The translations under genes and the position numbers were made by a program. Below, piece by piece: positions 11,055-19,931 of a DNA stretch of 64,000 nucleotides (within the stretch, counting starts at the first letter, position 1; every line of letters begins with the position of its first letter). The notes under the pieces are model-generated. The model made no database searches. It was not told where the DNA came from and worked only from the letters and a program-made list of their open reading frames with translations. Origin of the DNA: Alphaproteobacteria bacterium (lineage in GTDB: Bacteria > Pseudomonadota > Alphaproteobacteria > Rs-D84); NCBI GenBank assembly GCA_031549365.1, contig JAVBPX010000001.1, positions 137,157 through 201,156 of the forward strand, given 5' to 3'.

Positions 11055-11834
11055 ATGAAAAATAATTTTTTTAACGAACAATCTTTAAATTCTGATATTA
11101 AAACTCAGATTATCTTAGCTACATTTAAACTTTGGCTTCAAGACAATAAAAAGGAACAAAATCTATCTTATATTGATCTATTTTCAGGGCCTGGCATATA
11201 TGATGATGGAACATTATCTACACCGATATGTATTTTACAGGAAATTTGCAATAATAAGAGAATGGCACAGAGATTCAATGTGATCTTAAATGATTATAAT
11301 GCAGAATTTATTGCAAAATTGCGTCGTATGATTTTGAATGTGAAAAATGCTAGGTTTATAAAAACTTTGGTTACTTCGATTGGTAATGCTGAAAGTTTTC
11401 AAAAGACCGTATCTAATAATGAACATATCTTCATGTTAATTGATCCTTGGGGATGGAAGGGTATAAATAGAAATTATATTAATAATATGTTATTAAATAA
11501 GGACTGTGATATTGCGGTGATGTTTAATTTTAATCAGTTTAATCGGTTTATGAATTTTGATATCGCAGATGAATTGTTTAATGATTTGTTTGATAAAAAA
11601 ACTTTGCACGAAATACGTAAATTTTGTAGCACAAATCCAAAATCGGAAAGAGAACAATTCGTGATAGATAAATTTGTGAAAATGGTTTGTAAAAATTGTG
11701 AAAATTGTAATTACACGCCATTTAAATTTAAGATGGAAAAATCGACGCGTACAAGCCATTATATTATTTTTATAATTCGTGATAAAGATAGATTTCAAGC
11801 AACGAAAACTTTGTTAAATCAATACTTGGCTTGA
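11055..11834 (+). CDS. Three-Cys-motif partner protein (TcmP-like, methyltransferase-like fold)
   Basis: YIDLFSGPG...STP, LIDPWG motifs; adjacent to DUF5131, its usual partner. Confidence 0.8.
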   Translation: MKNNFFNEQSLNSDIKTQIILATFKLWLQDNKKEQNLSYIDLFSGPGIYDDGTLSTPICILQEICNNKRMAQRFNVILNDYNAEFIAKLRRMILNVKNARFIKTLVTSIGNAESFQKTVSNNEHIFMLIDPWGWKGINRNYINNMLLNKDCDIAVMFNFNQFNRFMNFDIADELFNDLFDKKTLHEIRKFCSTNPKSEREQFVIDKFVKMVCKNCENCNYTPFKFKMEKSTRTSHYIIFIIRDKDRFQATKTLLNQYLA

Positions 11835-11865
11835 AAAATAATATCGTTTCTGGCATAATGTGAAT

Positions 11866-12600
11866 ATGGCAGAAAAATCTAAACTTGAATGGACGGATGC
11901 AACGTGGAACCCAGTTGTTGGATGTACAAAGTACAGCGATGGGTGTATAAATTGTTATGCAAAACCAATTGCAGAACGTTTGTGTAGACAAGGAGTTTTT
12001 GGATACGAAAATGGTTTTAAAATGACATTGCGTCCAGAGCGTTTGGAAATTCCATTGCATTGGAAAAAACCAAGATTAATATTTGTAGACTCCATGTGCG
12101 ATTTATTTCACGATGATGTGCCATTAGAATATATTCAGAAAGTTTTTGCAATAATGAAGCGTGCAGATTGGCATGTTTATACCATATTAACAAAACGATC
12201 AAAGCGTTTGCGTGAATTGGCGTCAAACCTTGAATGGATGCCGCATGTTGTAATGGGTGTAACGATTGAATCCGATAAATATCGTGATAGGCTGGATGAT
12301 TTGAAGGCTGTGCCTGCATATATGCGATATTTATCATTGGAGCCATTGTTGGGACCAATTAACCGATTGGATTTGGATGGAATTGATTGGGTTATTGCTG
12401 GTGGAGAATCCGGACCAAATGCACGGCAACTGGATACAAATTGGGTCAGAGAAATTCGCGATTGGACATTGGAACAAAAAGCTGCGTTTTGGTTTAAACA
12501 GTATAGCGAGTATGGGGGACAGCATAAAGACCCTATTTTAGATGGGGAAAAATATAAGCAATTTCCAGATTTTAAAACCGGAAAACCGAGTCTGTTTTAA
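11866..12600 (+). CDS. DUF5131 / phage Gp37-Gp68 family three-Cys protein
   Basis: EWTDATWNPVVGCTKYSDGCINCYA, FVDSMCDLFH, LTKR, SLEPLLG, WVIAGGESG, FKQ. Confidence 0.92.
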   Translation: MAEKSKLEWTDATWNPVVGCTKYSDGCINCYAKPIAERLCRQGVFGYENGFKMTLRPERLEIPLHWKKPRLIFVDSMCDLFHDDVPLEYIQKVFAIMKRADWHVYTILTKRSKRLRELASNLEWMPHVVMGVTIESDKYRDRLDDLKAVPAYMRYLSLEPLLGPINRLDLDGIDWVIAGGESGPNARQLDTNWVREIRDWTLEQKAAFWFKQYSEYGGQHKDPILDGEKYKQFPDFKTGKPSLF

Positions 12601-13231: not shown

Positions 13232-14824
13232 ATGTCGGATAACAATGCCATTCATTGGGCGGATTTTATTGCAGAGCGAATAATTCGTGAAAAAGGCGAT
13301 AAAGATTTATATACTTTGGCCAGCGGAATTACCCCGTCTGGGACAATTCATATTGGAAAATTTCGCGAGATTATAACCACCGAATTGGTGTCCCGGGCGT
13401 TGGTTCGCATGGGGAAAAAGGTACGTTTTATTTATTCTTGGGATGATTATGATACTTTTCGCAAAGTGCCGGGCGATATGCCACAGCAAGAGATGTTAAA
13501 AGAATTATTGTATCAGCCGATTGTCGATATTCCAGATGTTTACGGAACAGAAAGTTCTTATGCTCGGCATAACGAAGTGTCGTTGGAACGTATTGCTCCG
13601 GTATTGGGCATAACAAATATTGAATTTATTTATCAAAGTCGGATGTATCGTAGTGGCGAATATAATGATTTGATTATAAAGGTTATGGATTCGCGAGATA
13701 AAATTCGTGATATTTTACAGACATCTAAAAGCCAGGGGATGGATGAAGAGTTTTATCCTATTGCAACTTATTGCAGCAATTGCAATCGTGACCGAATTGT
13801 TTTTTCAAATTATAATACATCAGATAAAACAGTTGATTATAAGTGTAAGTTATGCAACCACACGGAAAAGTTAAATTTACGCGATTCAAGGCGGCTGAAA
13901 TTGCCTTGGCGAATTGATTGGCCAATGCGTTGGGCATTTGAAAATGTTGATTTTGAACCAGGTGGGACAGATCATTCTTCGGCTGGGGGCAGTTTTGATA
14001 CCAGCAAAGTAATCGTTAGTGAGATTTTTGGAGGGGCGTCTCCGGTTTATGCAAAATATGCATTTGTATTGCCAAAGGGTGAAAGCAAAAAGATGTCTTC
14101 GTCAATTGGTAACGGGTTTTCTGTGGAAAGCGTTTTGCAGGTTTATGAACCAGAAATGATACGTTGGTTTTTTGCTTCGTATAAACCAGATGCGCAGTTC
14201 AGTATGGCTTTTGACATTGATGTTTTGAAGAATTACGAAGCATTTGACCGAATGGAACGCGTGGTTTATGGATTGGAAGATGTGAATGATGACAGGCGTG
14301 CAGTGCAGCGGCGTATTTATGAAATGTCTCAGATAAATTTTGATGGAAAGATTCCGGAACAGATGCCTTTTCAGCCGAGTTTTAGGCACCTGTGTAATCA
14401 GTTGCAAATAAACGAATTTGATATCGAAAAAACCAGAGCATATTACGCCCACCAAATCAAAAATGACATCGATGAACAACGGTATCAAGAAAGGTCCAAA
14501 TGCGCAGTATTTTGGATACAAAATTGTGCTTCGGATGATTTCAAACTTATATTGAATTCCGAAAAACGCAATGACATGACATTGTCGACAGATGAAAAAA
14601 AGTTCGTGAATGACTTGCACAAAATGTTGGAGATTGATTGGGACAATTTAGATGACGAACGCGTCTTACAAAGTAAGGTCGGTGAATTAATTAAGGCCAA
14701 CGGATTGGAAGTACTAAATGCGTATAAACTGTTATATCAGTTACTGGTCAATCGGGACCAAGGACCAAAGCTGGCCGGATTTATTTTGGGTATTGGCAAG
14801 GATAAGATTCTGAATTTGTTGTAA
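13232..14824 (+). CDS. lysK: Lysine--tRNA ligase, class I (LysRS1)
   Basis: HWAD, ASGITPSGTIHIG, SWDDYD.FRKVP, two CxxC, KLPWRIDWPMRW, KMSSS, GPKLAGF. Confidence 0.95.
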   Translation: MSDNNAIHWADFIAERIIREKGDKDLYTLASGITPSGTIHIGKFREIITTELVSRALVRMGKKVRFIYSWDDYDTFRKVPGDMPQQEMLKELLYQPIVDIPDVYGTESSYARHNEVSLERIAPVLGITNIEFIYQSRMYRSGEYNDLIIKVMDSRDKIRDILQTSKSQGMDEEFYPIATYCSNCNRDRIVFSNYNTSDKTVDYKCKLCNHTEKLNLRDSRRLKLPWRIDWPMRWAFENVDFEPGGTDHSSAGGSFDTSKVIVSEIFGGASPVYAKYAFVLPKGESKKMSSSIGNGFSVESVLQVYEPEMIRWFFASYKPDAQFSMAFDIDVLKNYEAFDRMERVVYGLEDVNDDRRAVQRRIYEMSQINFDGKIPEQMPFQPSFRHLCNQLQINEFDIEKTRAYYAHQIKNDIDEQRYQERSKCAVFWIQNCASDDFKLILNSEKRNDMTLSTDEKKFVNDLHKMLEIDWDNLDDERVLQSKVGELIKANGLEVLNAYKLLYQLLVNRDQGPKLAGFILGIGKDKILNLL

Positions 14825-14828
14825 TTCA

Positions 14829-15593
14829 TTACCTTTCTTGTATGTGCTTTCCCATAATGCACTGGCGAGCGATGATTTTTTTGATGTTACTGCCGACAAG
14901 TTGCGATGTTAGAGGGCAATGATAGCTTTTTTTGAAATTTTCAGTGCATTGTTGTAAAGTTTCTGTAAAATTTGGTTTATAAAATTTTCCAATTTCTATA
15001 CCCACAGGGGTGTTTTCAAGATTTCCCTTTGCTATTTCGTTATCAAAATTTTGTTTTGTAGTCGCAATTATATGTTTATTATCAGTGGTATGCAAGTGTG
15101 GTTCAGCCCTCTCCCATTGCGGTTGTGTAGATACAAATTTATCGGCCTCTTGCTTGTATGTTGAGTGTAATAGTGGACTATCTTTTAGTATTATTTTAGG
15201 TAAGTGCAACACCCATAAAATAATTCGAGCATATTGAAATTGCGATAATATGCAATCAGTTAATACGCATGAAGAACTCATAATTGACGGTAGAGAATCT
15301 TTAATGTTATTTGCAATGTATATGAGATCTGAAAGGCATTCTTTGTCTAGGCAAAATCCAAGGTGGTCAAAATCCTTTTGAAGGTCGTAATGCAGTTTCT
15401 TCATGTATTCAAGAAATTTTTTTTCTTGTTCGTGGTTGGATTTTTTTAGTAATATAAAAGTGTCAACATCTGAATTTGTTTTATCTTCACCTCGAGCAGT
15501 TGAGCCACATATAAATGAAAACTCTAGATTGTCTCCGAATATCTCTCGGGTATCTAAGTCCAATTGTTTTATCTGTTTTTTTGTTATTTTCAT
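14829..15593 (-). CDS. Pol-beta-superfamily nucleotidyltransferase with an unknown Cys-containing C-terminal region
   Basis: ICGSTARGEDKTNSDVDTF is the GS..RG....SDxD signature. Confidence 0.8.
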   Translation of the reverse strand: MKITKKQIKQLDLDTREIFGDNLEFSFICGSTARGEDKTNSDVDTFILLKKSNHEQEKKFLEYMKKLHYDLQKDFDHLGFCLDKECLSDLIYIANNIKDSLPSIMSSSCVLTDCILSQFQYARIILWVLHLPKIILKDSPLLHSTYKQEADKFVSTQPQWERAEPHLHTTDNKHIIATTKQNFDNEIAKGNLENTPVGIEIGKFYKPNFTETLQQCTENFKKSYHCPLTSQLVGSNIKKIIARQCIMGKHIQER

Positions 15594-15615
15594 TATTATT
15601 TACCAGTTGCTGTTT

Positions 15616-17073
15616 TTATAAGTATCTTACGATTTCTCTCTGAGGTAGAATTGGTTGTGGAGTAAATATGCCTTTGTAATAGATTCCAGATGCATGCTTT
15701 CCTATACCGCCATATGGTTTGTATCCATGCTCGAAATTGTGTAGATGGTCATTCACAAGTATAGAGTCCGGCATATGGATTTTTTCATCATAAAGTATGG
15801 CTATTGTTTCTTCTTTTAATTTTCCATAAACTGTCAAAAACATAGCTGATTCTTTATATTTTGTATTTTTGAAATAGTTTATAAGTTCATTTTCTGAATC
15901 ATAAGGTTGTATAAAGAATATTGGACAGAACAATTCTTCGTAATTAGCTCCTTCAGAGAGATCCTTTACTATTACCGTAGGATATATCATATTTTTTGAA
16001 GCGTCTATAAGACCTCCATAATAAATATTCTTCCGATTGTTATAAATTAGTTTTGCAGCATTTAATGCGTATCCATCTTTTGTATTAGGCATTATTATCG
16101 TGGATTTTTCAGGATTTGAATTACAGTTTTCATGAATTTCTTTTAATTTATTTATTAAAATTTCTTGAAAATCTGTTAAACAATCTCTTTTCACAAGTAA
16201 TGCATTTGGGGCGGCACAGTCTTGTCCTTGGTTGTATGTTCCAAGCTCGATACATGCTTCGACGGCTTCTTTGATATTTGACCGAAGATTTATTATAACC
16301 GGGTTTTGTCCAGCACCACCAAAGAAACAATATAACTCTTTGTTATACGATCTTTTTACTTTCTTCATGTTTTCATATGTACCTGTAAATATAAATGCCT
16401 TTATTTCATTTCGTGTAATATTGAGAAAATCCTCTCTTCCTCCATAGAATATTTCTATATTTGGCATACTTGATAAATTTAACAATTTATCTAGCTCTTT
16501 AAAAACGTCTTGAGAATCATTTGGATATCTAACATATACTTTCTTACAAATATACGATGGAACAAGAGCAAAACAAACAAAGGAATACAGCAATTGGTTT
16601 AAAGGCATAAATGACGCGATTGGTGCTTTCTCTTTTAAAAAGTATTCCTTATTTATGGTAAGATTTGTAAGAAGGTCTATTGATCTATCAATTTCATCAC
16701 ATATTGTATTATAGGTGGCATATGATGAAAGAGCTTTATAGATATCTTCTCTGCGCTGATTTAATTGAAACGAAAAATTGAGCGCGTCTGTTAAAATTTT
16801 ATCAAAGTCTAGATTATTTTCCACGTCTTTTTTAGAAATATTTGTTCTTTGTCCAAACCAAGAGCCAATTTCCTTTTTACTGAGTTTCTCTGTTTTTACT
16901 ATAAGCCCTAAGTCATTTTTTTCATACTCCAGGCTGAGATTGTTAATATTGTGGAGTATATTATCTTTAGCTTTTGTATCCATCTCATCAAATTTGAGGA
17001 TAAAAGTCAGCCCATTTTTATCTTGTAAAATGGTTCCAATAGGCTGTTTCTTTTTCCTTACTATGAAGTCCAT
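15616..17073 (-). CDS. Divergent aldehyde-dehydrogenase-fold protein
   Basis: PLN (PWN), FTGT, GQNP, NQGQDC (catalytic Cys), EELFCP (EEIFGP), PYGG; AAGGAG RBS. Confidence 0.85.
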   Translation of the reverse strand: MDFIVRKKKQPIGTILQDKNGLTFILKFDEMDTKAKDNILHNINNLSLEYEKNDLGLIVKTEKLSKKEIGSWFGQRTNISKKDVENNLDFDKILTDALNFSFQLNQRREDIYKALSSYATYNTICDEIDRSIDLLTNLTINKEYFLKEKAPIASFMPLNQLLYSFVCFALVPSYICKKVYVRYPNDSQDVFKELDKLLNLSSMPNIEIFYGGREDFLNITRNEIKAFIFTGTYENMKKVKRSYNKELYCFFGGAGQNPVIINLRSNIKEAVEACIELGTYNQGQDCAAPNALLVKRDCLTDFQEILINKLKEIHENCNSNPEKSTIIMPNTKDGYALNAAKLIYNNRKNIYYGGLIDASKNMIYPTVIVKDLSEGANYEELFCPIFFIQPYDSENELINYFKNTKYKESAMFLTVYGKLKEETIAILYDEKIHMPDSILVNDHLHNFEHGYKPYGGIGKHASGIYYKGIFTPQPILPQREIVRYL

Positions 17074-17104
17074 ATTTTCTCCTTGATTAATGTGGACCTT
17101 AAGT

Positions 17105-18604
17105 TTATCTCAACTTTATTTTTTTTAACATGGGAAATGTTAAAACATCTCTGATATTAGATGAGTTTGTTAACATCATGGCGAGGCGATCTGCACCTAT
17201 TCCCATGCCTCCTGTAGGGGGCATACCGTATTCTAAAGCTGTAAGAAAGGCTTCATCCATTTGCATTGCTTCAGGATCATCTGAAAGAGATGCTTGTTCT
17301 TCGAATTTTTTTCTTTGATCTATTGGATTTGATAATTCTGAGTAAGCTTCACCAAATTCAATGCCGCCAACATAGAGCATAAATCTTTCAGAAAGACGTG
17401 GGTTTTGTCGATGTATTTTTGTCAGCGGAGATATATCATATGGAACATCCATTACGAAAGTTGGTTGAATAAGAGTTTTTTCGACTTTTTCTTCAAATAT
17501 AGTTTCTACTACTTTACCCCAAGATTCAGTTCCCTTGAGTCGAATTTTGTGTTTTTGGGCAATGCTATGAATTTCCCTATCGCTCATGTTTATAAGATCT
17601 TCGTTCAGCGCTTCTGATGCTGCGTCTACCATTGGTAATCTTTTAAATGGTTTTTCAAGGTCTATTAAGGCATCTTTCCAAGTAATGTGGAGAGAGCTGT
17701 TGACAGCCATAGATGAATCTCGCAGCAATCTTTCTGCGAGAATCATCATGTCAAAATAGTCTTTATAAGAGCCATATATATCTAGCATTGTGAATTCTGG
17801 ACTGTGGCGATTATCAATACCTTCATTGCGGAAATTTTTACCAATTTCAAACACTCGAGGAATGCCTCCAACAATGAGCCGCTTTAGTTCAAGTTCAGAT
17901 GCTATCCTGAGATAAAAATCGTCTTTAAGAGAATTATAATGTGTAGTAAATGGAGCAGCATTTGCACCGGCTTTTACTGGGTGAAGTATAGGTGTTTCTA
18001 CCTCTATATATCCCTCATCGTGCATTACTTCGCGTATAGCATACATTGCTTTCGCCCTATTGAGAACAACATCCCGAGAGTTTTTGTTTACTATAAGATC
18101 TACGGATTTATTGCGGTATCTTTCTTCGGAGTCTGTTAGACCGTGGTATTTTTCAGGAAGAATATTCAATGATTTTGACAGCATTGTTACTTCCAGAGGA
18201 GTAACAGAAACTGCTCCTCGCAAAGTTTTTTTAATTCCTCCCAAAACACCAATTATATCACCAATGTCAAGATTTTTAAGCATGTTATTAAATTGTGTAT
18301 CTGCTTTTGGATTTTCATTGCAAATTTGAATTTTTCCGGATTCATCTTCAACATCGATGAACATTCCGGAATTTCGGATTGCCATAATTCTTCCTGCAAT
18401 TTTTACAATGTCTTTTGTATCCGCTGTCTTTTCACCAGGTTGAAGGTGGCCAAATTCAGCTATTATATTACTGGCAAGATGCGTTGGTTTGTATATGTGT
18501 GGATATGCGTTTATTCCTTGAGATTCGATGTCTTTAAGTTTTTGAATCCTTATTTCTTTTAAAGAATTTATTGGTGTCTTATTATCTTTTTTTTGATTTT
18601 GCAT
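17105..18604 (-). CDS. lysS: Lysine--tRNA ligase, class II paralogue (full length, with anticodon OB-fold)
   Basis: AGRIM, LPEKYHGL, EVETP, YLRIASEL.LKRL, FRNEG motif 2, EYGMPPTGGMGIGADRL motif 3. Confidence 0.93.
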   Translation of the reverse strand: MQNQKKDNKTPINSLKEIRIQKLKDIESQGINAYPHIYKPTHLASNIIAEFGHLQPGEKTADTKDIVKIAGRIMAIRNSGMFIDVEDESGKIQICNENPKADTQFNNMLKNLDIGDIIGVLGGIKKTLRGAVSVTPLEVTMLSKSLNILPEKYHGLTDSEERYRNKSVDLIVNKNSRDVVLNRAKAMYAIREVMHDEGYIEVETPILHPVKAGANAAPFTTHYNSLKDDFYLRIASELELKRLIVGGIPRVFEIGKNFRNEGIDNRHSPEFTMLDIYGSYKDYFDMMILAERLLRDSSMAVNSSLHITWKDALIDLEKPFKRLPMVDAASEALNEDLINMSDREIHSIAQKHKIRLKGTESWGKVVETIFEEKVEKTLIQPTFVMDVPYDISPLTKIHRQNPRLSERFMLYVGGIEFGEAYSELSNPIDQRKKFEEQASLSDDPEAMQMDEAFLTALEYGMPPTGGMGIGADRLAMMLTNSSNIRDVLTFPMLKKIKLR

Positions 18605-18626
18605 AGATATACCTTTTTATACTTTT

Positions 18627-18699
18627 TGGGGGGCGGTCCGGATTTGAACCGTACCTCTGAGGGAAAACTCAGCGTTCTGCCTAATTATACTACCCGCCC
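18627..18699 (-). tRNA. Non-canonical tRNA-like gene (6-nt anticodon loop UUUUCC; Lys-like?)
   Basis: Reverse complement is GGGCGGGTAGTATAATTAGGCAGAACGCTGAGTTTTCCCTCAGAGGTACGGTTCAAATCCGGACCGCCCCCCA. It has a GGGCGG/CCGCCC acceptor, D-loop GG, CTGAG/CTCAG stem, GGTTCAAATCC T-arm and encoded CCA. Confidence 0.85.
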
Positions 18700-18782
18700 T
18701 ATAATTGTGATGAAGTGATCCCATCAACTTATCATTGTTTATGTCAAAAGCAATTTAAATGTCAATAATTATTTTTTGTTAT

Positions 18783-19931
18783 TTATTTGTTATTTAATAT
18801 AATTAATGGCACTTGCATTTCGGATGCTGTCCCGCCTGCATGTTCAGATGCTGGTGAGCCAAACTCTTCCCAAGCTTTTTGATTTTGATGCAATGATTTG
18901 TTTCCTATTCCAATTGCGACATAGTCCCCGATTGATTCATCTTCCAGCACTCTATTCTTGGCAGAATACCAGTGAAGGTAGTTTGTTTTAAAAGTTTCCT
19001 TATTGATCAGCAAAAAATCTTTCTCCGAAAATATTTCATAAAATATTCTTTCAAAGCTATTTTTAGCCTCTGGTTTTACGAAAAATTGTGTACAACGCGC
19101 CTCACATGAAATCGGCATTATCAGAGTGTCAGCAATACCCGTAAAATCTTCGATAAATAAGGGCAAAGTATCAATATGACCGTGATCAGCAGTTATGATG
19201 AATAATGTATCTGGGCAATTATTTTGCAAATTTATTATTGCATCTCGTATATTGCAGATACAATTTCTGGCTTCGCCAGACAAAATTCCGTGATCATGGT
19301 TAGTGCTATCTGGCTCCGGCCAATACGCGTATATGTAATTTTTATTGGCATTTTTTGTATTTGCTATTTTTTCAATAGTTGAACACCATTTCTCAACTGT
19401 ATTATGCTCTGGTGTAATAAACTGAGGCATAACCTCAAAAGCGCTCCATTCGGAAATATCATTGATTTGGTCAACAAGTAATGCTGGCATTTTTTCCAAC
19501 GGAGGCTTCGTAAGATGAGATGATTCACCACTATAAAAGTCACAATTAGTAAAATTTTCGACAATCTCTCCAGATTCTTTATAATATTGCGACCATCCCA
19601 ATAACCCATGTGATACAGGCAACAGCCCCGTGCGCAAAGTTGTTGTGGCGGCAACCGTAGTAGAAGGAACTATTGTATCAATAGTATCATATTTGTTTTT
19701 ATAAAAATAGTCTGTCACAGAATCGCTTAATACATCCAGCTGTTCTGTCCCCATTCCGTCTAGGACTATAAGAGCTATGTTTTTGTACACTTCCGATGAC
19801 CACGAATTTATGATCATTGGATGCGACTCATAATTTGGACATAGTCCAACAATTTTTTGTATTGCAGATGTTATTGATGTTATATCGTATTTCATGAGGT
19901 ACATATTAGCAATGACATATCTTGAAGTCAA
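18783..19931 (-). CDS. Alkaline phosphatase superfamily (nucleotide pyrophosphatase/phosphodiesterase-like) protein; start uncertain (ATG 19895 or 19904 possible)
   Basis: LDGMG, PSTT nucleophile, DSTNHDHG, TADHG, EHAG. Confidence 0.88.
   Translation of the reverse strand: MTSRYVIANMYLMKYDITSITSAIQKIVGLCPNYESHPMIINSWSSEVYKNIALIVLDGMGTEQLDVLSDSVTDYFYKNKYDTIDTIVPSTTVAATTTLRTGLLPVSHGLLGWSQYYKESGEIVENFTNCDFYSGESSHLTKPPLEKMPALLVDQINDISEWSAFEVMPQFITPEHNTVEKWCSTIEKIANTKNANKNYIYAYWPEPDSTNHDHGILSGEARNCICNIRDAIINLQNNCPDTLFIITADHGHIDTLPLFIEDFTGIADTLIMPISCEARCTQFFVKPEAKNSFERIFYEIFSEKDFLLINKETFKTNYLHWYSAKNRVLEDESIGDYVAIGIGNKSLHQNQKAWEEFGSPASEHAGGTASEMQVPLIILNNK

What the first reader, a model, noticed from the sequence alone, without database searches (positions are those of the whole stretch)
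14829..18699. Candidate new system: dedicated odd tRNA + LysRS2 paralogue + ALDH-fold enzyme + nucleotidyltransferase
Seen: four tightly packed co-oriented units (gaps 22, 31 and 22 nt): tRNA-like gene > lysS paralogue > ALDH-like > NTase. They lie inside a tRNA-Ser island, with a co-oriented phosphodiesterase-family gene just upstream. The tRNA, synthetase and ALDH each deviate from their housekeeping forms at functional positions (see separate findings). Established: aminoacyl-tRNAs serve as non-ribosomal donors (glutamyl-tRNA reductase, Fem/MprF transferases, valanimycin SerRS), and extra aaRS genes mark antimetabolite clusters. Inference: a self-contained pathway in which a private tRNA is charged with lysine or an analogue and passed to the ALDH-fold enzyme (e.g. 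reduction to an amino-aldehyde, by analogy to HemA), with the NTase acting on the product or on the tRNA end. A defence or anti-tRNase role is an alternative. I do not know of a description of this combination.
Basis: partly seen in the sequence, partly recalled or inferred. Interest (0 to 1): 0.92.

Follow-up and report, generated by a model that had tools for sequence, protein, structure and literature searches.

The report
Private tRNA, extra LysRS, ALDH-like reductase
A tiny gut bacterium carries an acquired operon (odd tRNA, extra lysyl-tRNA synthetase, aldehyde-dehydrogenase-like enzyme, nucleotidyltransferase) whose parts are fused or adjacent in many other microbes, which points to an undescribed enzyme family that takes lysine or arginine off tRNA for a use outside protein synthesis.

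Summary
On the minus strand lie a tRNA-like gene with a 6-nt anticodon loop (18627-18700), a divergent class II LysRS (17105-18604), a divergent ALDH-fold protein (15616-17073) and a Pol-beta NTase (14829-15593), separated by 23, 31 and 22 nt. The 0.9 Mb genome also has normal tRNA-Lys(UUU, CUU), a second LysRS2 and a LysRS1.

The ALDH-like gene was found in none of the 327 other genomes of its order, so the cluster is acquired. Its family is large: 219 cluster representatives at E<=1e-30. Members are repeatedly fused to LysRS1, to the LysRS1 C-terminal module, to degenerate LysRS2 with its anticodon-binding OB fold, or to a P0003-like NTase. This holds for 62 of 80 metagenome loci and 34 of 50 long representatives. 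Other members lie beside LysRS2 or ArgRS.

One locus (L084) repeats the whole design with ArgRS and a second 6-nt-loop tRNA that carries the Arg anticodon letters.

The ALDH-like protein keeps the catalytic Cys, the oxyanion Asn and the NAD(P) motifs but lacks the hydrolytic Glu.

Best reading (inferred, untested): an aminoacyl-tRNA reductase working like GluTR on a ribosome-insulated tRNA. The NTase role is unresolved. My literature searches found no description.

The parts
18627..18700 (-). tRNA-like gene. Acceptor stem G1-C72 with a G7.A66 mismatch, discriminator C73, encoded CCA, canonical T-loop (UUCAAAU) and G18G19. The D-stem is weak, T-stem pair 50:64 is an A.G mismatch, and the anticodon loop is 6 nt (UUUUCC). 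The loop reads U33-UUU-C37-C38 if nucleotide 32 is the missing one.
   Evidence: ARAGORN 'tRNA-?(Lys|Glu)(tt)'. Rfam tRNA 28.6 bits, gathering 29. Sequence. CCA is encoded as in the 44 other tRNAs, and C73 contrasts with A73 in both genomic tRNA-Lys. An RNA-library contig spans 18549-18766.
17105..18604 (-). LysRS2b (P0001, 499 aa), a full-length class II lysyl-tRNA synthetase paralogue. It has altered pocket and Mg-site residues: D275 for Glu, M409 for Glu, E419 for Asn. Three further changes are its own: A217, N165-K-S-V168 and E239.
   Evidence: Pfam and NCBIfam. 47% identity to the genome's other LysRS2. It forms a clade with P0222-P0224 (59-62% identity) that shares the D, M and E changes and a 2-residue deletion.
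15616..17073 (-). ALDH-fold protein (P0002, 485 aa). Cys286, Asn159, E380/F382 and the FTG motif are kept. Gly252 sits at the general-base Glu position, where the family consensus is Asn. There is an extra N-terminal domain of about 85 residues.
   Evidence: Pfam. AF2 pLDDT 92.5. Foldseek matches ALDH superfamily only, TM about 0.65, 13-20% identity. Profile alignment to solved ALDHs. Family size and fusions.
14829..15593 (-). Pol-beta-type nucleotidyltransferase (P0003, 254 aa) with G30-S31, D42-x-D44 and D76. The C-terminal ~160 residues are of unknown fold.
   Evidence: Pfam PF01909 and PF18765. It aligns with NTase modules fused to, or adjacent to, ALDH-like genes (A4; phmmer 1e-6 to 1e-14). 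AF2 is confident only for residues 1-90. No word-based homologues.
18783..19931 (-). Cytoplasmic NPP/alkaline-phosphatase-superfamily phosphodiesterase-like protein (P0341), co-oriented upstream. Membership in the system is uncertain.
   Evidence: PF01663 at 1.5e-12. No homologue at E<=1e-5 in the 80 related loci. Sequence.
13232..14824 (+). Class I LysRS (P0081, 530 aa), convergent with the NTase. It may be a partner, by analogy with the B. cereus LysRS1+LysRS2/tRNAOther case, or merely a neighbour.
   Evidence: PF01921 at 2e-114 and TIGR00467 at 478 bits. 68-72% identical to the LysRS1 of three same-family genomes, but with no shared neighbours. Relatives have LysRS1 or LysRS2, and only 1 of 60 has both.

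Best explanation
This is a horizontally acquired operon that diverts a basic amino acid from translation through a private tRNA.

Step 1 (inferred). LysRS2b, possibly together with the adjacent LysRS1, charges the tRNA-like RNA with lysine or a close cationic analogue. The RNA keeps the Lys identity letters (U35, U36, and a full UUU if nucleotide 32 is the one missing) and an encoded CCA. Its 6-nt anticodon loop, pyrimidine-37, C73 discriminator and 50:64 T-stem mismatch should keep it off the ribosome and apart from the normal tRNA-Lys pool.

Step 2 (inferred from conserved chemistry and Rosetta-stone fusions). The ALDH-fold enzyme attacks the aminoacyl ester with Cys286 to form a thioester. 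It has no general-base Glu to hydrolyse that thioester, so it releases it reductively with NAD(P)H as the alpha-amino aldehyde (lysinal). This is the GluTR logic on a different fold.

Step 3 (open). The Pol-beta NTase is a conserved partner and is fused to the ALDH-like enzyme in many lineages. It either nucleotidylates the product (or a hydroxyl derived from it) or acts on the tRNA 3' end.

What is shown: gene content, residue conservation, fusions, neighbourhoods, and uniqueness within the order. What is not shown: charging, reduction, the product and the NTase target.
For: (1) Operon anatomy and a surplus of LysRS and tRNA-Lys genes.

(2) The ALDH-like family is large, with 1142, 424 and 219 representatives at E<=1e-3, 1e-10 and 1e-30. 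I picked 50 members for length. Of these, 13 carry LysRS1 parts, 4 carry LysRS2 parts and 17 carry a P0003-like NTase (Pfam tally).

(3) Of the 80 best metagenome loci, 10 are fused to LysRS1, 41 carry a C-terminal tail and 11 are fused to the NTase. By hhalign the tail is the LysRS1 C-terminus (99%, E 3.4e-18).

(4) Fused LysRS2 parts keep the OB fold but have lost motif 2 and motif 3 residues, so they look like tRNA-binding modules. Most fused LysRS1 parts keep the HxGx and KMSxS motifs.

(5) ArgRS lies directly upstream of ALDH-NTase fusions in L036, L063 and L080 and close by in L088 and L084. From recalled enzymology, LysRS1 and ArgRS both need tRNA to activate the amino acid. That favours aa-tRNA over aa-AMP as the substrate.

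(6) L084 has a second 6-nt-loop tRNA (UUCGUA, reading U33-UCG-U37-A38; Rfam 48.5 bits) 7 nt upstream of the ArgRS start. It also has a 50:64 mismatch.

(7) In L025/L026 a tRNA-Lys(UUU) with G33 follows a LysRS2 in an ALDH-like cluster.

(8) Catalytic inventory: Cys, Asn and the EExFxP and FTG motifs are kept, and the general base is replaced. The fold is confirmed.

(9) Neighbours and fusion partners are enzymes that use aldehydes or amines. These are an aminotransferase and a GNAT, IucA/IucC, and a saccharopine-DH-like gene with an MFS transporter next to a LysRS1-ALDH fusion in G255.

(10) RNA-library contigs, 100% identical, cover the tRNA-like gene together with the lysS2b 5' end, and other parts of the operon.
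Against: - There is no biochemical evidence of any kind.
- The window's ALDH-like protein itself has no LysRS-derived tRNA-binding module, only an uncharacterised N-terminal domain.
- The RNA scores just under Rfam's tRNA threshold, and its cloverleaf is not the MFE fold (z -1.67).
- The full design with a private tRNA was seen in only 2 places. ArgRS-linked loci L036, L063, L080 and L088 and LysRS2-linked loci L034 and L067 show no odd tRNA.
- M409 replaces a residue that I recall as Mg-binding, so LysRS2b may be a poor catalyst or a scaffold.
- The contexts of the closest LysRS2b relatives (P0222-P0224) and the closest ALDH-like relatives (P0005, P0009, P0011) could not be fetched.
- The 50 long proteins were selected for length, so 34/50 overstates the fusion rate. 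Many ~400-aa members, for example those from Actinomycetota, stand alone.
- The RNA contigs may reflect DNA carry-over, and contigs cannot show RNA ends.
- The NTase has no assigned step.
- The direction of the ALDH-like reaction (reductive or acylating-oxidative) is not determined by sequence.
Confidence: 0.5

Rival explanations
1. The tRNA-like element is a cis-acting leader, not a substrate. It would be a tRNA mimic in the 5' UTR through which the synthetase autoregulates its own translation, as in ThrRS operator logic. The ALDH-like enzyme and NTase would then act on ordinary Lys-tRNA-Lys, and LysRS2b would be an auxiliary or stress synthetase.
For: The RNA ends 23 nt before the lysS2b start in the window and 7 nt before the ArgRS start in L084. 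Binding there would occlude the ribosome site. One RNA-library contig spans the RNA and the lysS2b 5' end. Most ALDH-like loci have no private tRNA. Fused tRNA-binding modules are LysRS-derived and would recognise normal tRNA-Lys.
Against: A regulator needs only an anticodon-arm mimic. Here a whole cloverleaf is kept, with T-loop, G18G19, 7-bp acceptor, discriminator and encoded CCA. Both odd tRNAs share loop shortening plus a 50:64 mismatch. Those features matter for ribosome and EF-Tu avoidance (recalled) rather than for synthetase binding.
Confidence: 0.15
2. The cluster is an antimetabolite cassette with a self-resistance gene. The ALDH-like enzyme and NTase would make a lysine-derived inhibitor of LysRS, for example an aminoalkyl-adenylate-type mimic of Lys-AMP. 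LysRS2b would be the insensitive target copy.
For: LysRS2b is an extra synthetase with changes at the amino-acid and Mg pocket, and these changes are shared by a small clade. The NTase could attach NMP to a reduced product. The NTase gives a weak ANT(9) hit. An MFS exporter and a TetR regulator lie beside a LysRS1-ALDH fusion in G255, and an MFS also lies beside the ALDH-like gene in L017. The precedent of resistant aaRS copies in antibiotic clusters is recalled.
Against: This reading does not explain the private tRNA. In CPR-like loci the ALDH-like domain is fused to what looks like an active LysRS1 and sits in conserved housekeeping-like synteny. That is odd for a LysRS poison. ALDH-fold enzymes normally stop at the aldehyde rather than the alcohol (recalled). 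No such product is known.
Confidence: 0.1
3. The cluster is a phage-defence or counter-defence module. The decoy or back-up tRNA and spare LysRS would protect against tRNA-Lys anticodon nucleases, or the enzymes would deplete Lys-tRNA on infection.
For: The neighbouring genes 11055-11834 and 11860-12600 match the PADLOC candidate pair PDC-M30A/B (9.4e-15; 4.9e-92). The NTase weakly matches PDC-S09 (9.5e-10). The region has low GC and is unique within the order.
Against: LysRS2b and the ALDH-like protein match no PADLOC model. No relative of the ALDH-like family was found in IMG/VR viral contigs. Most family members sit in small CPR-like genomes in conserved synteny, or in metabolite-like clusters, rather than in defence islands. 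A 6-nt loop would probably not be a substrate mimic for an anticodon nuclease (inference).
Confidence: 0.08
4. The cluster is a decaying remnant of horizontal transfer. The RNA would be a tRNA pseudogene, LysRS2b a drifting duplicate, and the adjacency to the ALDH-like and NTase genes without function.
For: The RNA is below the Rfam threshold, with a weak D-stem and a non-cloverleaf MFE fold. The cluster is unique in the order. P0003 has no close homologues.
Against: All three ORFs are intact with tight spacing. The catalytic residues of the ALDH-like protein and the NTase are conserved. LysRS2b scores above NCBIfam cut-offs. The same families are fused or adjacent in many lineages, and L084 repeats the odd-tRNA design. 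RNA-library contigs cover the locus.
Confidence: 0.05

Closest known systems
Glutamyl-tRNA reductase (HemA/GluTR) with GluRS
   Same: The proposed logic is the same. A synthetase that needs tRNA for activation hands aa-tRNA to an enzyme whose Cys forms a thioester, which NADPH reduces to an amino aldehyde (GluTR mechanism recalled).
   Different: The fold is unrelated: ALDH superfamily here, with no HemA-family match. The amino acids are Lys or Arg rather than Glu. GluTR uses the ordinary tRNA-Glu, whereas here there is a private tRNA with a 6-nt loop. An NTase partner has no counterpart in the GluTR system.
Bacillus cereus tRNAOther charged jointly by LysRS1 and LysRS2
   Same: One genome holds both LysRS classes plus an aberrant tRNA-like RNA linked to them (passages of PMC2916919 read). 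G000 has LysRS1, two LysRS2 genes and an odd tRNA within about 5.5 kb.
   Different: tRNAOther is reported there to control TrpRS1 expression, and no ALDH-like or NTase partner is mentioned in the passages read. I could not compare sequences because no tRNAOther sequence was available. Joint charging was not tested here.
LysX (MprF-LysRS2 fusion) and MprF/Fem aminoacyl-tRNA transferases with non-proteinogenic tRNA-Gly of staphylococci
   Same: A synthetase is fused to, or encoded next to, the enzyme that consumes its aa-tRNA (LysX is listed in PMC9437257). Dedicated tRNA isoacceptors are kept out of translation by T-stem changes (recalled).
   Different: Those enzymes transfer the aminoacyl group to lipid or peptidoglycan. 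Here the consumer is an NAD(P)-type ALDH-fold enzyme. Insulation here includes a shortened anticodon loop, for which I know no natural precedent (recalled).
Non-hydrolytic ALDH-superfamily reductases and acylating dehydrogenases (ProA gamma-glutamyl-phosphate reductase, LuxC, CoA-acylating ALDHs)
   Same: ALDH fold, Cys nucleophile and absence of the hydrolytic general-base Glu. Several family members give weak LuxC (PF05893) hits.
   Different: The acyl donor proposed here is an aminoacyl-tRNA ester, not an acyl phosphate, acyl-CoA or acyl-protein. The family is 13-20% identical to any solved ALDH and carries tRNA-binding or synthetase modules.
PoxA/EpmA (LysRS2 paralogue that lysylates EF-P)
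   Same: A LysRS2 paralogue with a remodelled amino-acid pocket used outside translation (PMC9437257).
   Different: EpmA lacks the anticodon-binding domain. LysRS2b keeps it, and it scores far below the EpmA cut-offs (209.6 against 286.9 bits) while passing the LysRS cut-offs.

Membership tests
Class II lysyl-tRNA synthetase (NCBIfam NF001756 / TIGR00499) | Whole-protein score above the curated cut-off, with an OB anticodon domain plus a class II core | tested here: met
   596.2 bits against a cut-off of 468, and 540.8 against 427.6. PF01336 plus PF00152.
Class II lysyl-tRNA synthetase (NCBIfam NF001756 / TIGR00499) | Conserved active-site residues of motif 2, motif 3 and the lysine/Mg site | tested here: inconclusive
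   FRNEG (258-262) and GxDR (470-473) are kept. Three positions conserved in the 8 ordinary LysRS2 of alignment A3 are changed: E to D275, E to M409 and N to E419. P0001 alone also has A217, NKSV165-168 and E239. The roles of these positions are recalled from E. coli LysU and were not tested.
Class II lysyl-tRNA synthetase (NCBIfam NF001756 / TIGR00499) | Being the cell's housekeeping LysRS | tested here: not met
   The genome also has LysRS2 P0004 on contig C5 (655 bits) and LysRS1 P0081. Only 1 of 60 relatives has two LysRS genes, one of each class.
Aldehyde dehydrogenase superfamily (PF00171) | Sequence and fold membership | tested here: met
   PF00171 at 68 bits against a cut-off of 23, though only residues 220-415 match. 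AF2 pLDDT 92.5. Foldseek top hits are all ALDHs, E 5e-23, TM 0.61-0.67.
Aldehyde dehydrogenase superfamily (PF00171) | Catalytic Cys, oxyanion Asn and NAD(P)-binding motifs | tested here: met
   C286 is invariant in A2. N159, FTG and EELFxP align to PFN, FTGS and EEIFGP of solved ALDHs.
Aldehyde dehydrogenase superfamily (PF00171) | General-base Glu of the ELGG motif, needed for hydrolytic aldehyde oxidation | tested here: not met
   The family consensus 'lnGaGhNP' aligns to 'LE(M/L)GG..P' of 6k0z and 3pqa. The position is Asn in the family and Gly252 in P0002.
Glutamyl-tRNA reductase (HemA) | Homology to the GluTR family | tested here: not met
   No HemA/GluTR family appears among the Pfam or NCBIfam hits of P0002. 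The fold is ALDH.
Glutamyl-tRNA reductase (HemA) | Uses aminoacyl-tRNA as acyl donor and releases an amino aldehyde | not testable with these tools
   Indirect evidence only: fusions to synthetases and tRNA-binding modules.
tRNA (Rfam RF00005) | Covariance-model score at or above gathering | tested here: not met
   28.6 bits against 29, and not listed at gathering threshold. The L084 counterpart passes at 48.5 bits.
tRNA (Rfam RF00005) | 7-nt anticodon loop with U33 and purine-37 | tested here: not met
   The loop is 6 nt, UUUUCC. L084 has UUCGUA.
tRNA (Rfam RF00005) | Acceptor stem, T-loop, G18G19 and a 3' CCA | tested here: met
   CCA is encoded as in 44 of the 44 other tRNAs.
Pol-beta nucleotidyltransferase (PF01909 / PF18765) | Score above cut-off, with the GS motif and three catalytic carboxylates | tested here: met
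   31 bits against 21, and 28.8 against 26.9. G30, S31, D42, D44 and D76 are invariant in A4.
B. cereus tRNAOther / LysRS1+LysRS2 system | Both LysRS classes plus an aberrant tRNA-like RNA in one genome | tested here: met
B. cereus tRNAOther / LysRS1+LysRS2 system | RNA homologous to tRNAOther, charged only by the two enzymes together | not tested
   No tRNAOther sequence was available. Charging is an experiment.
Known or candidate anti-phage systems (PADLOC-DB 2.0) | Match of the component proteins to a system model | tested here: not met
   P0001 and P0002 give no hit. P0003 gives only weak PDC-S09 and PDC-M05A hits.

The most novel reading that the evidence does not exclude
A large, undescribed clade of the ALDH superfamily would be aminoacyl-tRNA reductases for the basic amino acids. 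Members appear among candidate-phyla-radiation-type small genomes and scattered in Proteobacteria, Bacteroidota and Actinomycetota. They would be recruited to Lys-tRNA or Arg-tRNA by fused synthetases or by pseudo-synthetase anticodon-binding modules, and would make lysinal or argininal for onward chemistry that involves a dedicated Pol-beta NTase.

Some versions would come with their own 'translation-blind' tRNAs. These keep the cognate anticodon letters for the synthetase but have a 6-nt anticodon loop and a 50:64 T-stem mismatch. That would be a natural orthogonal tRNA/synthetase pair used for metabolism.

A bolder sub-variant is not excluded. The enzyme might run in the acylating direction and load tRNA from an amino aldehyde without ATP.
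Probability: 0.4. Interest if true: 0.95.

Novelty: categorically new. Interest (0 to 1): 0.88.

Why it matters
If correct, this would be a second, evolutionarily independent kind of aminoacyl-tRNA reductase after GluTR. It would be a new route from Lys/Arg-tRNA to reactive amino aldehydes. It would also be a natural example of a tRNA made unreadable by the ribosome through shortening of its anticodon loop while staying chargeable.

The family is common in ultra-small bacteria, whose metabolism is poorly understood. It is often welded to their LysRS, so it may explain an unannotated but widespread function there.

It also gives synthetic biology naturally orthogonal tRNA/synthetase pairs, and it gives enzymology a new acyl donor for the ALDH fold. 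All of this is directly testable with four recombinant components.

Tried and rejected
- Complex prediction of LysRS2b (A3) with the ALDH-like protein (A2) gave 'no answer', score 0.00. I do not use this either way.
- AF2 of the NTase with the 16-row alignment A4 was confident only for residues 1-90 (mean pLDDT 58), so I ran no fold search on it.
- The search for homologous proteins with the NTase returned only the query itself.
- The promoter and terminator scan was at shuffle level, 29 found against 30.8 expected, so I claim no promoter.
- The MFE fold of the RNA is not a cloverleaf (z -1.67).
- No att-like repeat of tRNA-Ser was found.
- The search for related loci in genome contigs with P0002 alone found one weak relative, L007 at 25% identity, and I did not use it.
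- The viral-contig scan found no relative.
- Searches of 60 relatives, the whole order (327 other genomes) and a 400-genome phylum sample found the ALDH-like gene only in G255. An orthologous cluster for covariation analysis of the RNA was therefore not available, and I built no covariance model.
- Parts of the stretch without RNA-contig cover in runs X2 and X3 are not evidence of silence.
- I considered a tRNA-dependent side-chain conversion, an aminoadipate-type precursor on tRNA that is reduced and transaminated as in LysW-type pathways. I set it aside because LysRS2b keeps the acidic residues that I recall as binding a cationic side chain (E237 and E423 equivalents).
- I considered Ap4A-type signalling by LysRS2b together with the NPP-like phosphodiesterase. 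I set it aside because the ALDH-like family is equally linked to LysRS1 and ArgRS.
- Literature searches found no paper describing a LysRS- or ArgRS-linked ALDH-like enzyme or an aminoacyl-tRNA reductase other than GluTR. The only hit for 'aminoacyl-tRNA reductase' was an unrelated tomato paper, seen in the listing only.
- I read the abstract and passages of PMC13149037; it is not relevant. I read passages of PMC2916919 and PMC9437257. Supplementary files were not consulted because they are closed. Subscription-only literature was not searched.

Full report
WHAT IS THERE

The four units are real and lie on the minus strand as a tight, co-oriented row.
- A tRNA-like gene at 18627-18700.
- A class II LysRS at 17105-18604 (P0001, called 'LysRS2b' here).
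- An ALDH-fold protein at 15616-17073 (P0002).
- A Pol-beta-type nucleotidyltransferase at 14829-15593 (P0003).

The gaps are 23, 31 and 22 nt. A cytoplasmic NPP/alkaline-phosphatase-type phosphodiesterase-like gene (18783-19931) sits upstream on the same strand. A full class I LysRS (13232-14824, P0081) is convergent with the NTase.

The window lies on contig C14 of a 911,163-bp, 15-contig genome with 39% GC and 97.6% estimated completeness. The coded runs that hold the stretch are labelled invertebrate gut metagenome.

THE RNA

ARAGORN calls it 'tRNA-?(Lys|Glu)' with a two-base anticodon 'tt'. Rfam's tRNA model gives 28.6 bits against a gathering score of 29, so it is missed at gathering threshold.

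Read against the model, it has these tRNA features:
- a 7-bp acceptor stem, G1-C72, with a G7.A66 mismatch;
- U8, G18G19 and a canonical T-loop (UUCAAAU);
- discriminator C73 and an encoded CCA, like the 44 other tRNA genes of the genome.

It also deviates in several ways:
- the D-stem is weak;
- T-stem pair 50:64 is an A.G mismatch;
- the anticodon stem (CUGAG/CUCAG) closes a loop of only six bases, UUUUCC.

If nucleotide 32 is the missing one, the loop reads U33-UUU-C37-C38. That is a complete Lys anticodon followed by an unusual pyrimidine-37. If nucleotide 34 is missing, U35 and U36 remain. Either way the letters that LysRS reads (recalled identity rules) are kept, while a normal decoding loop is not.

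The genome has ordinary tRNA-Lys(UUU) and tRNA-Lys(CUU), both with A73, so this RNA is surplus. Its thermodynamic fold alone is not a cloverleaf (z -1.67), and it resembles no genomic tRNA closely (at most 0.73 identity).

THE SYNTHETASE

The genome has three LysRS genes: P0001, a second LysRS2 on contig C5 (P0004; 47% identical to P0001) and LysRS1.

The 60 nearest genomes break down as follows:

| LysRS content | Genomes |
|---|---|
| LysRS2 only | 36 |
| Strong LysRS1 match only | 17 |
| Both | 1 |
| Neither (all incomplete genomes) | 6 |

P0001 passes the LysRS cut-offs. It forms a small clade with P0222-P0224 (59-62% identity), while ordinary LysRS2 plateau at about 50%.

That clade shares E to D275 in motif 2, E to M409, N to E419 and a two-residue deletion. 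P0001 alone also has A217, NKSV165-168 and E239. From recalled LysU structures, these positions touch the alpha-amino/carboxylate end of lysine and the Mg ions. The acidic residues that hold the epsilon-amine are kept. I therefore expect a cationic, lysine-like substrate, but I cannot say whether it is lysine itself or whether catalysis is intact.

THE ALDH-LIKE PROTEIN AND ITS FAMILY: THE KEY EVIDENCE

Structure and catalytic residues. P0002 folds confidently (pLDDT 92.5) as an ALDH, but it is only 13-20% identical to any solved one. A family profile aligned to solved ALDHs shows:
- the catalytic Cys is kept (C286; invariant in A2);
- the oxyanion Asn (N159), the FTG motif and the EExFxP motif are kept;
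- the general-base Glu of 'ELGG' is replaced, by Asn in the family and by Gly252 here.

From recalled ALDH enzymology, an ALDH without that Glu cannot hydrolyse its thioester. This is the signature of acylating dehydrogenases and of reductases of activated acyl groups (ProA, LuxC and CoA-acylating ALDHs).

Distribution. The gene was not found in 60 relatives or in any of the 327 other genomes of the order. It was found in one of 400 genomes sampled across the phylum (G255). In this lineage it is therefore acquired. GC falls to 0.31-0.33 across the NTase and ALDH genes.

Family size. The family is nonetheless large: 1142, 424 and 219 cluster representatives at E<=1e-3, 1e-10 and 1e-30. Several members are labelled 'lysyl-tRNA synthetase class 1' by their sources.

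Fusions among long representatives. I chose 50 representatives because they were long, so they are a biased sample. By phmmer:

| Fusion partner | Members (of 50) |
|---|---|
| LysRS1 parts | 13 |
| LysRS2 parts | 4 |
| P0003-like NTase | 17 |
| None of these | 16 |

The Pfam tally agrees and adds two aminotransferases, a GNAT and others.

Fusions among metagenome loci. Of the 80 best of 218 metagenome relatives (six loci are near-duplicates), classified:

| Class | Loci (of 80) |
|---|---|
| Fused to LysRS1 | 10 |
| ~175-residue C-terminal tail | 41 |
| Fused to the NTase | 11 |
| No C-terminal extension (several cut by contig ends) | 14 |
| Other or cut | 4 |

The tail is homologous to the LysRS1 C-terminus (hhalign 99%, E 3.4e-18, aligned to P0081 residues 426-530).

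State of the fused synthetase parts. The fused LysRS2 parts keep the OB anticodon domain but have lost motif 2 and motif 3 residues. They look like tRNA-Lys-binding modules rather than enzymes. Most fused LysRS1 parts keep the HxGx and KMSxS motifs; L027 does not.

Neighbouring synthetases. Unfused versions sit beside synthetases.
- LysRS2: L025/L026, L034 and L067, with IucA/IucC and GTP cyclohydrolase II genes between.
- ArgRS: directly upstream of ALDH-NTase fusions in L036, L063 and L080, and nearby in L088 and L084.

No relative was found in viral contigs.

A SECOND PRIVATE tRNA

L084 has this gene order: ALDH-like gene, NTase-HAD fusion and glycosyltransferase on one strand, then ArgRS convergent on the other strand. 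Seven nt upstream of the ArgRS start lies a tRNA that passes Rfam (48.5 bits) but again has a 6-nt anticodon loop, UUCGUA.

With the same reading frame as above, this is U33-UCG-U37-A38. That is an Arg anticodon, again followed by a pyrimidine-37, and again with a mismatch at T-stem pair 50:64 (U.U).

ARAGORN's 'tRNA-???' class is rare in what I scanned. There was 1 among 45 tRNAs in the genome and 1 among 12 default calls in about 0.8 Mb of loci. Both lie immediately upstream of the matching synthetase, in an ALDH-like/NTase neighbourhood.

In L025/L026 the tRNA-Lys(UUU) that follows LysRS2 has G33 instead of the near-universal U33 and a C2.A71 mismatch. No odd tRNA was seen in L034, L067 or L088, or next to the other ArgRS genes, where the gaps are too small.

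MECHANISM

- The synthetase charges a tRNA.
- The ALDH-like enzyme is brought to that tRNA by a fused or partner synthetase or anticodon-binding module. It takes the aminoacyl group on Cys286 and releases it with NAD(P)H as an amino aldehyde.

Three points favour aa-tRNA over aa-AMP as the donor.
- Tails that are only tRNA-binding.
- Catalytically dead LysRS2 scaffolds.
- The link to LysRS1 and ArgRS, which (recalled) do not make the adenylate without tRNA.

Partners that use aldehydes or amines fit an aldehyde product. These include an aminotransferase, IucA/IucC, and a saccharopine-dehydrogenase-like gene (weak, 3.9e-5) with MFS and TetR genes next to the G255 fusion.

In the window the private tRNA would keep this flux out of translation. 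The short loop would block decoding, and the 50:64 mismatch may weaken EF-Tu binding (recalled T-stem rule).

The NTase keeps its catalytic GS/DxD/D residues and occupies the same C-terminal position as the tRNA-binding modules in other members. Whether it acts on the product or on the tRNA 3' end is open. The direction of the redox step is not fixed by sequence.

EXPRESSION

A metatranscriptome run from the same study (X2) has 100%-identical contigs at these positions:
- 14497-15038;
- 17087-17296;
- 18235-18551;
- 18549-18766, which spans the RNA and the lysS2b start;
- 19525-19672.

This is compatible with transcription. It comes from a single study, contigs cannot show RNA ends, and DNA carry-over is not excluded.

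RIVALS

- A cis-regulatory tRNA mimic in the synthetase leader (0.15) fits the 23-nt and 7-nt spacing, but not the full acceptor/CCA anatomy.
- An antimetabolite cassette with a resistant LysRS (0.10) fits the pocket changes and the exporters, but not the private tRNA or the fusions to apparently active LysRS1.
- A defence role (0.08) is suggested by the neighbouring PDC-M30-like pair. It is not supported by PADLOC for the core genes, by viral contigs, or by the family's usual contexts.
- Decay (0.05) is contradicted by intact frames, conserved catalytic residues and recurrence.

NOVELTY

My six literature searches and passages of a 2022 review of synthetase duplications gave no description of this family, of a Lys- or Arg-tRNA reductase, or of natural 6-nt-loop tRNAs paired with synthetase paralogues. 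The review passages list only LysU, PoxA and LysX for LysRS. Subscription-only literature and supplements were not covered.

The closest known systems are GluTR (same logic, different fold), B. cereus tRNAOther with LysRS1+LysRS2, LysX/MprF and the Fem tRNAs, and non-hydrolytic ALDH-fold reductases.

I rate the system as categorically new in composition, with its function inferred.

Noticed in passing
window 11055-11834 (+) and 11860-12600 (+): Two adjacent genes match the PADLOC candidate defence pair PDC-M30A (9.4e-15) and PDC-M30B/M41B (DUF5131; 4.9e-92 and 4.6e-94). They lie just downstream of tRNA-Ser(CGA) in a stretch with 0.29 GC.
   Followed up: partly
genome G000: window 13232-14824, window 17105-18604, contig C5 19866-21308: There are three LysRS genes (one class I, two class II) in a 0.9 Mb genome. 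Of the 60 nearest genomes, 36 have LysRS2 only, 17 have LysRS1 only, 1 has both and 6 incomplete genomes have neither. LysRS class therefore switches repeatedly within one order.
   Followed up: partly
L084 4725-9774: An arginine version of the system: ALDH-like gene, NTase-HAD fusion, GT2 glycosyltransferase, convergent ArgRS, and a tRNA with the 6-nt anticodon loop UUCGUA 7 nt upstream of the ArgRS start.
   Followed up: yes
L025 9950-16278 (near-identical to L026): A cluster of ALDH-like gene, IucA/IucC synthetase, GTP cyclohydrolase II, an unknown 290-aa gene, LysRS2 and tRNA-Lys(UUU). The tRNA has G33 in place of U33, a C2.A71 mismatch and no encoded CCA. L034 and L067 share the GTP cyclohydrolase II and LysRS2 part.
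   Followed up: partly
L030, L033, L047, L049, L052, L055, L058, L059, L077, L079 and others: The ~610-aa form (ALDH-like plus LysRS1 C-terminal tail) sits in conserved synteny in many small-genome metagenome contigs. The order is a ~115-aa putative membrane protein, the ALDH-like gene and a ~500-aa histidine kinase, sometimes followed by TrpRS/TyrRS-type and class IIb synthetase genes.
   Followed up: partly
L100 (G255 contig C112) 6374-12667: A 4.5 Mb genome of the same phylum has a TetR regulator, a saccharopine-dehydrogenase-like gene (weak hit), a 939-aa LysRS1-ALDH-like fusion and an MFS transporter together. This looks like a small metabolite cassette. A haem/Slam surface-lipoprotein pair lies downstream.
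   Followed up: partly
proteins P0100, P0122, P0123, P0175; locus L027: These are pseudo-synthetase modules. The LysRS2-like parts fused to the ALDH-like enzyme keep the OB fold but have lost motif 2 and motif 3 residues. The LysRS1 part in L027 has lost the KMSKS motif.
   Followed up: partly
L021 5868-7112 and L023 2043-3287: A 415-aa truncated, divergent LysRS2-like gene with no N-terminal helix lies 3-4 kb upstream, on the opposite strand, of LysRS1-fused ALDH-like genes.
   Followed up: no
window 18783-19931 (-): The phosphodiesterase-like protein has the NPP-type metal and Thr-nucleophile motifs and no signal peptide. With an NTase in the same row it could turn over a nucleotide-linked product, but it has no counterpart in the 80 related loci.
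   Followed up: partly
genome G000, all contigs: ARAGORN found no tmRNA gene in the 15 contigs of this 97.6%-complete assembly.
   Followed up: no
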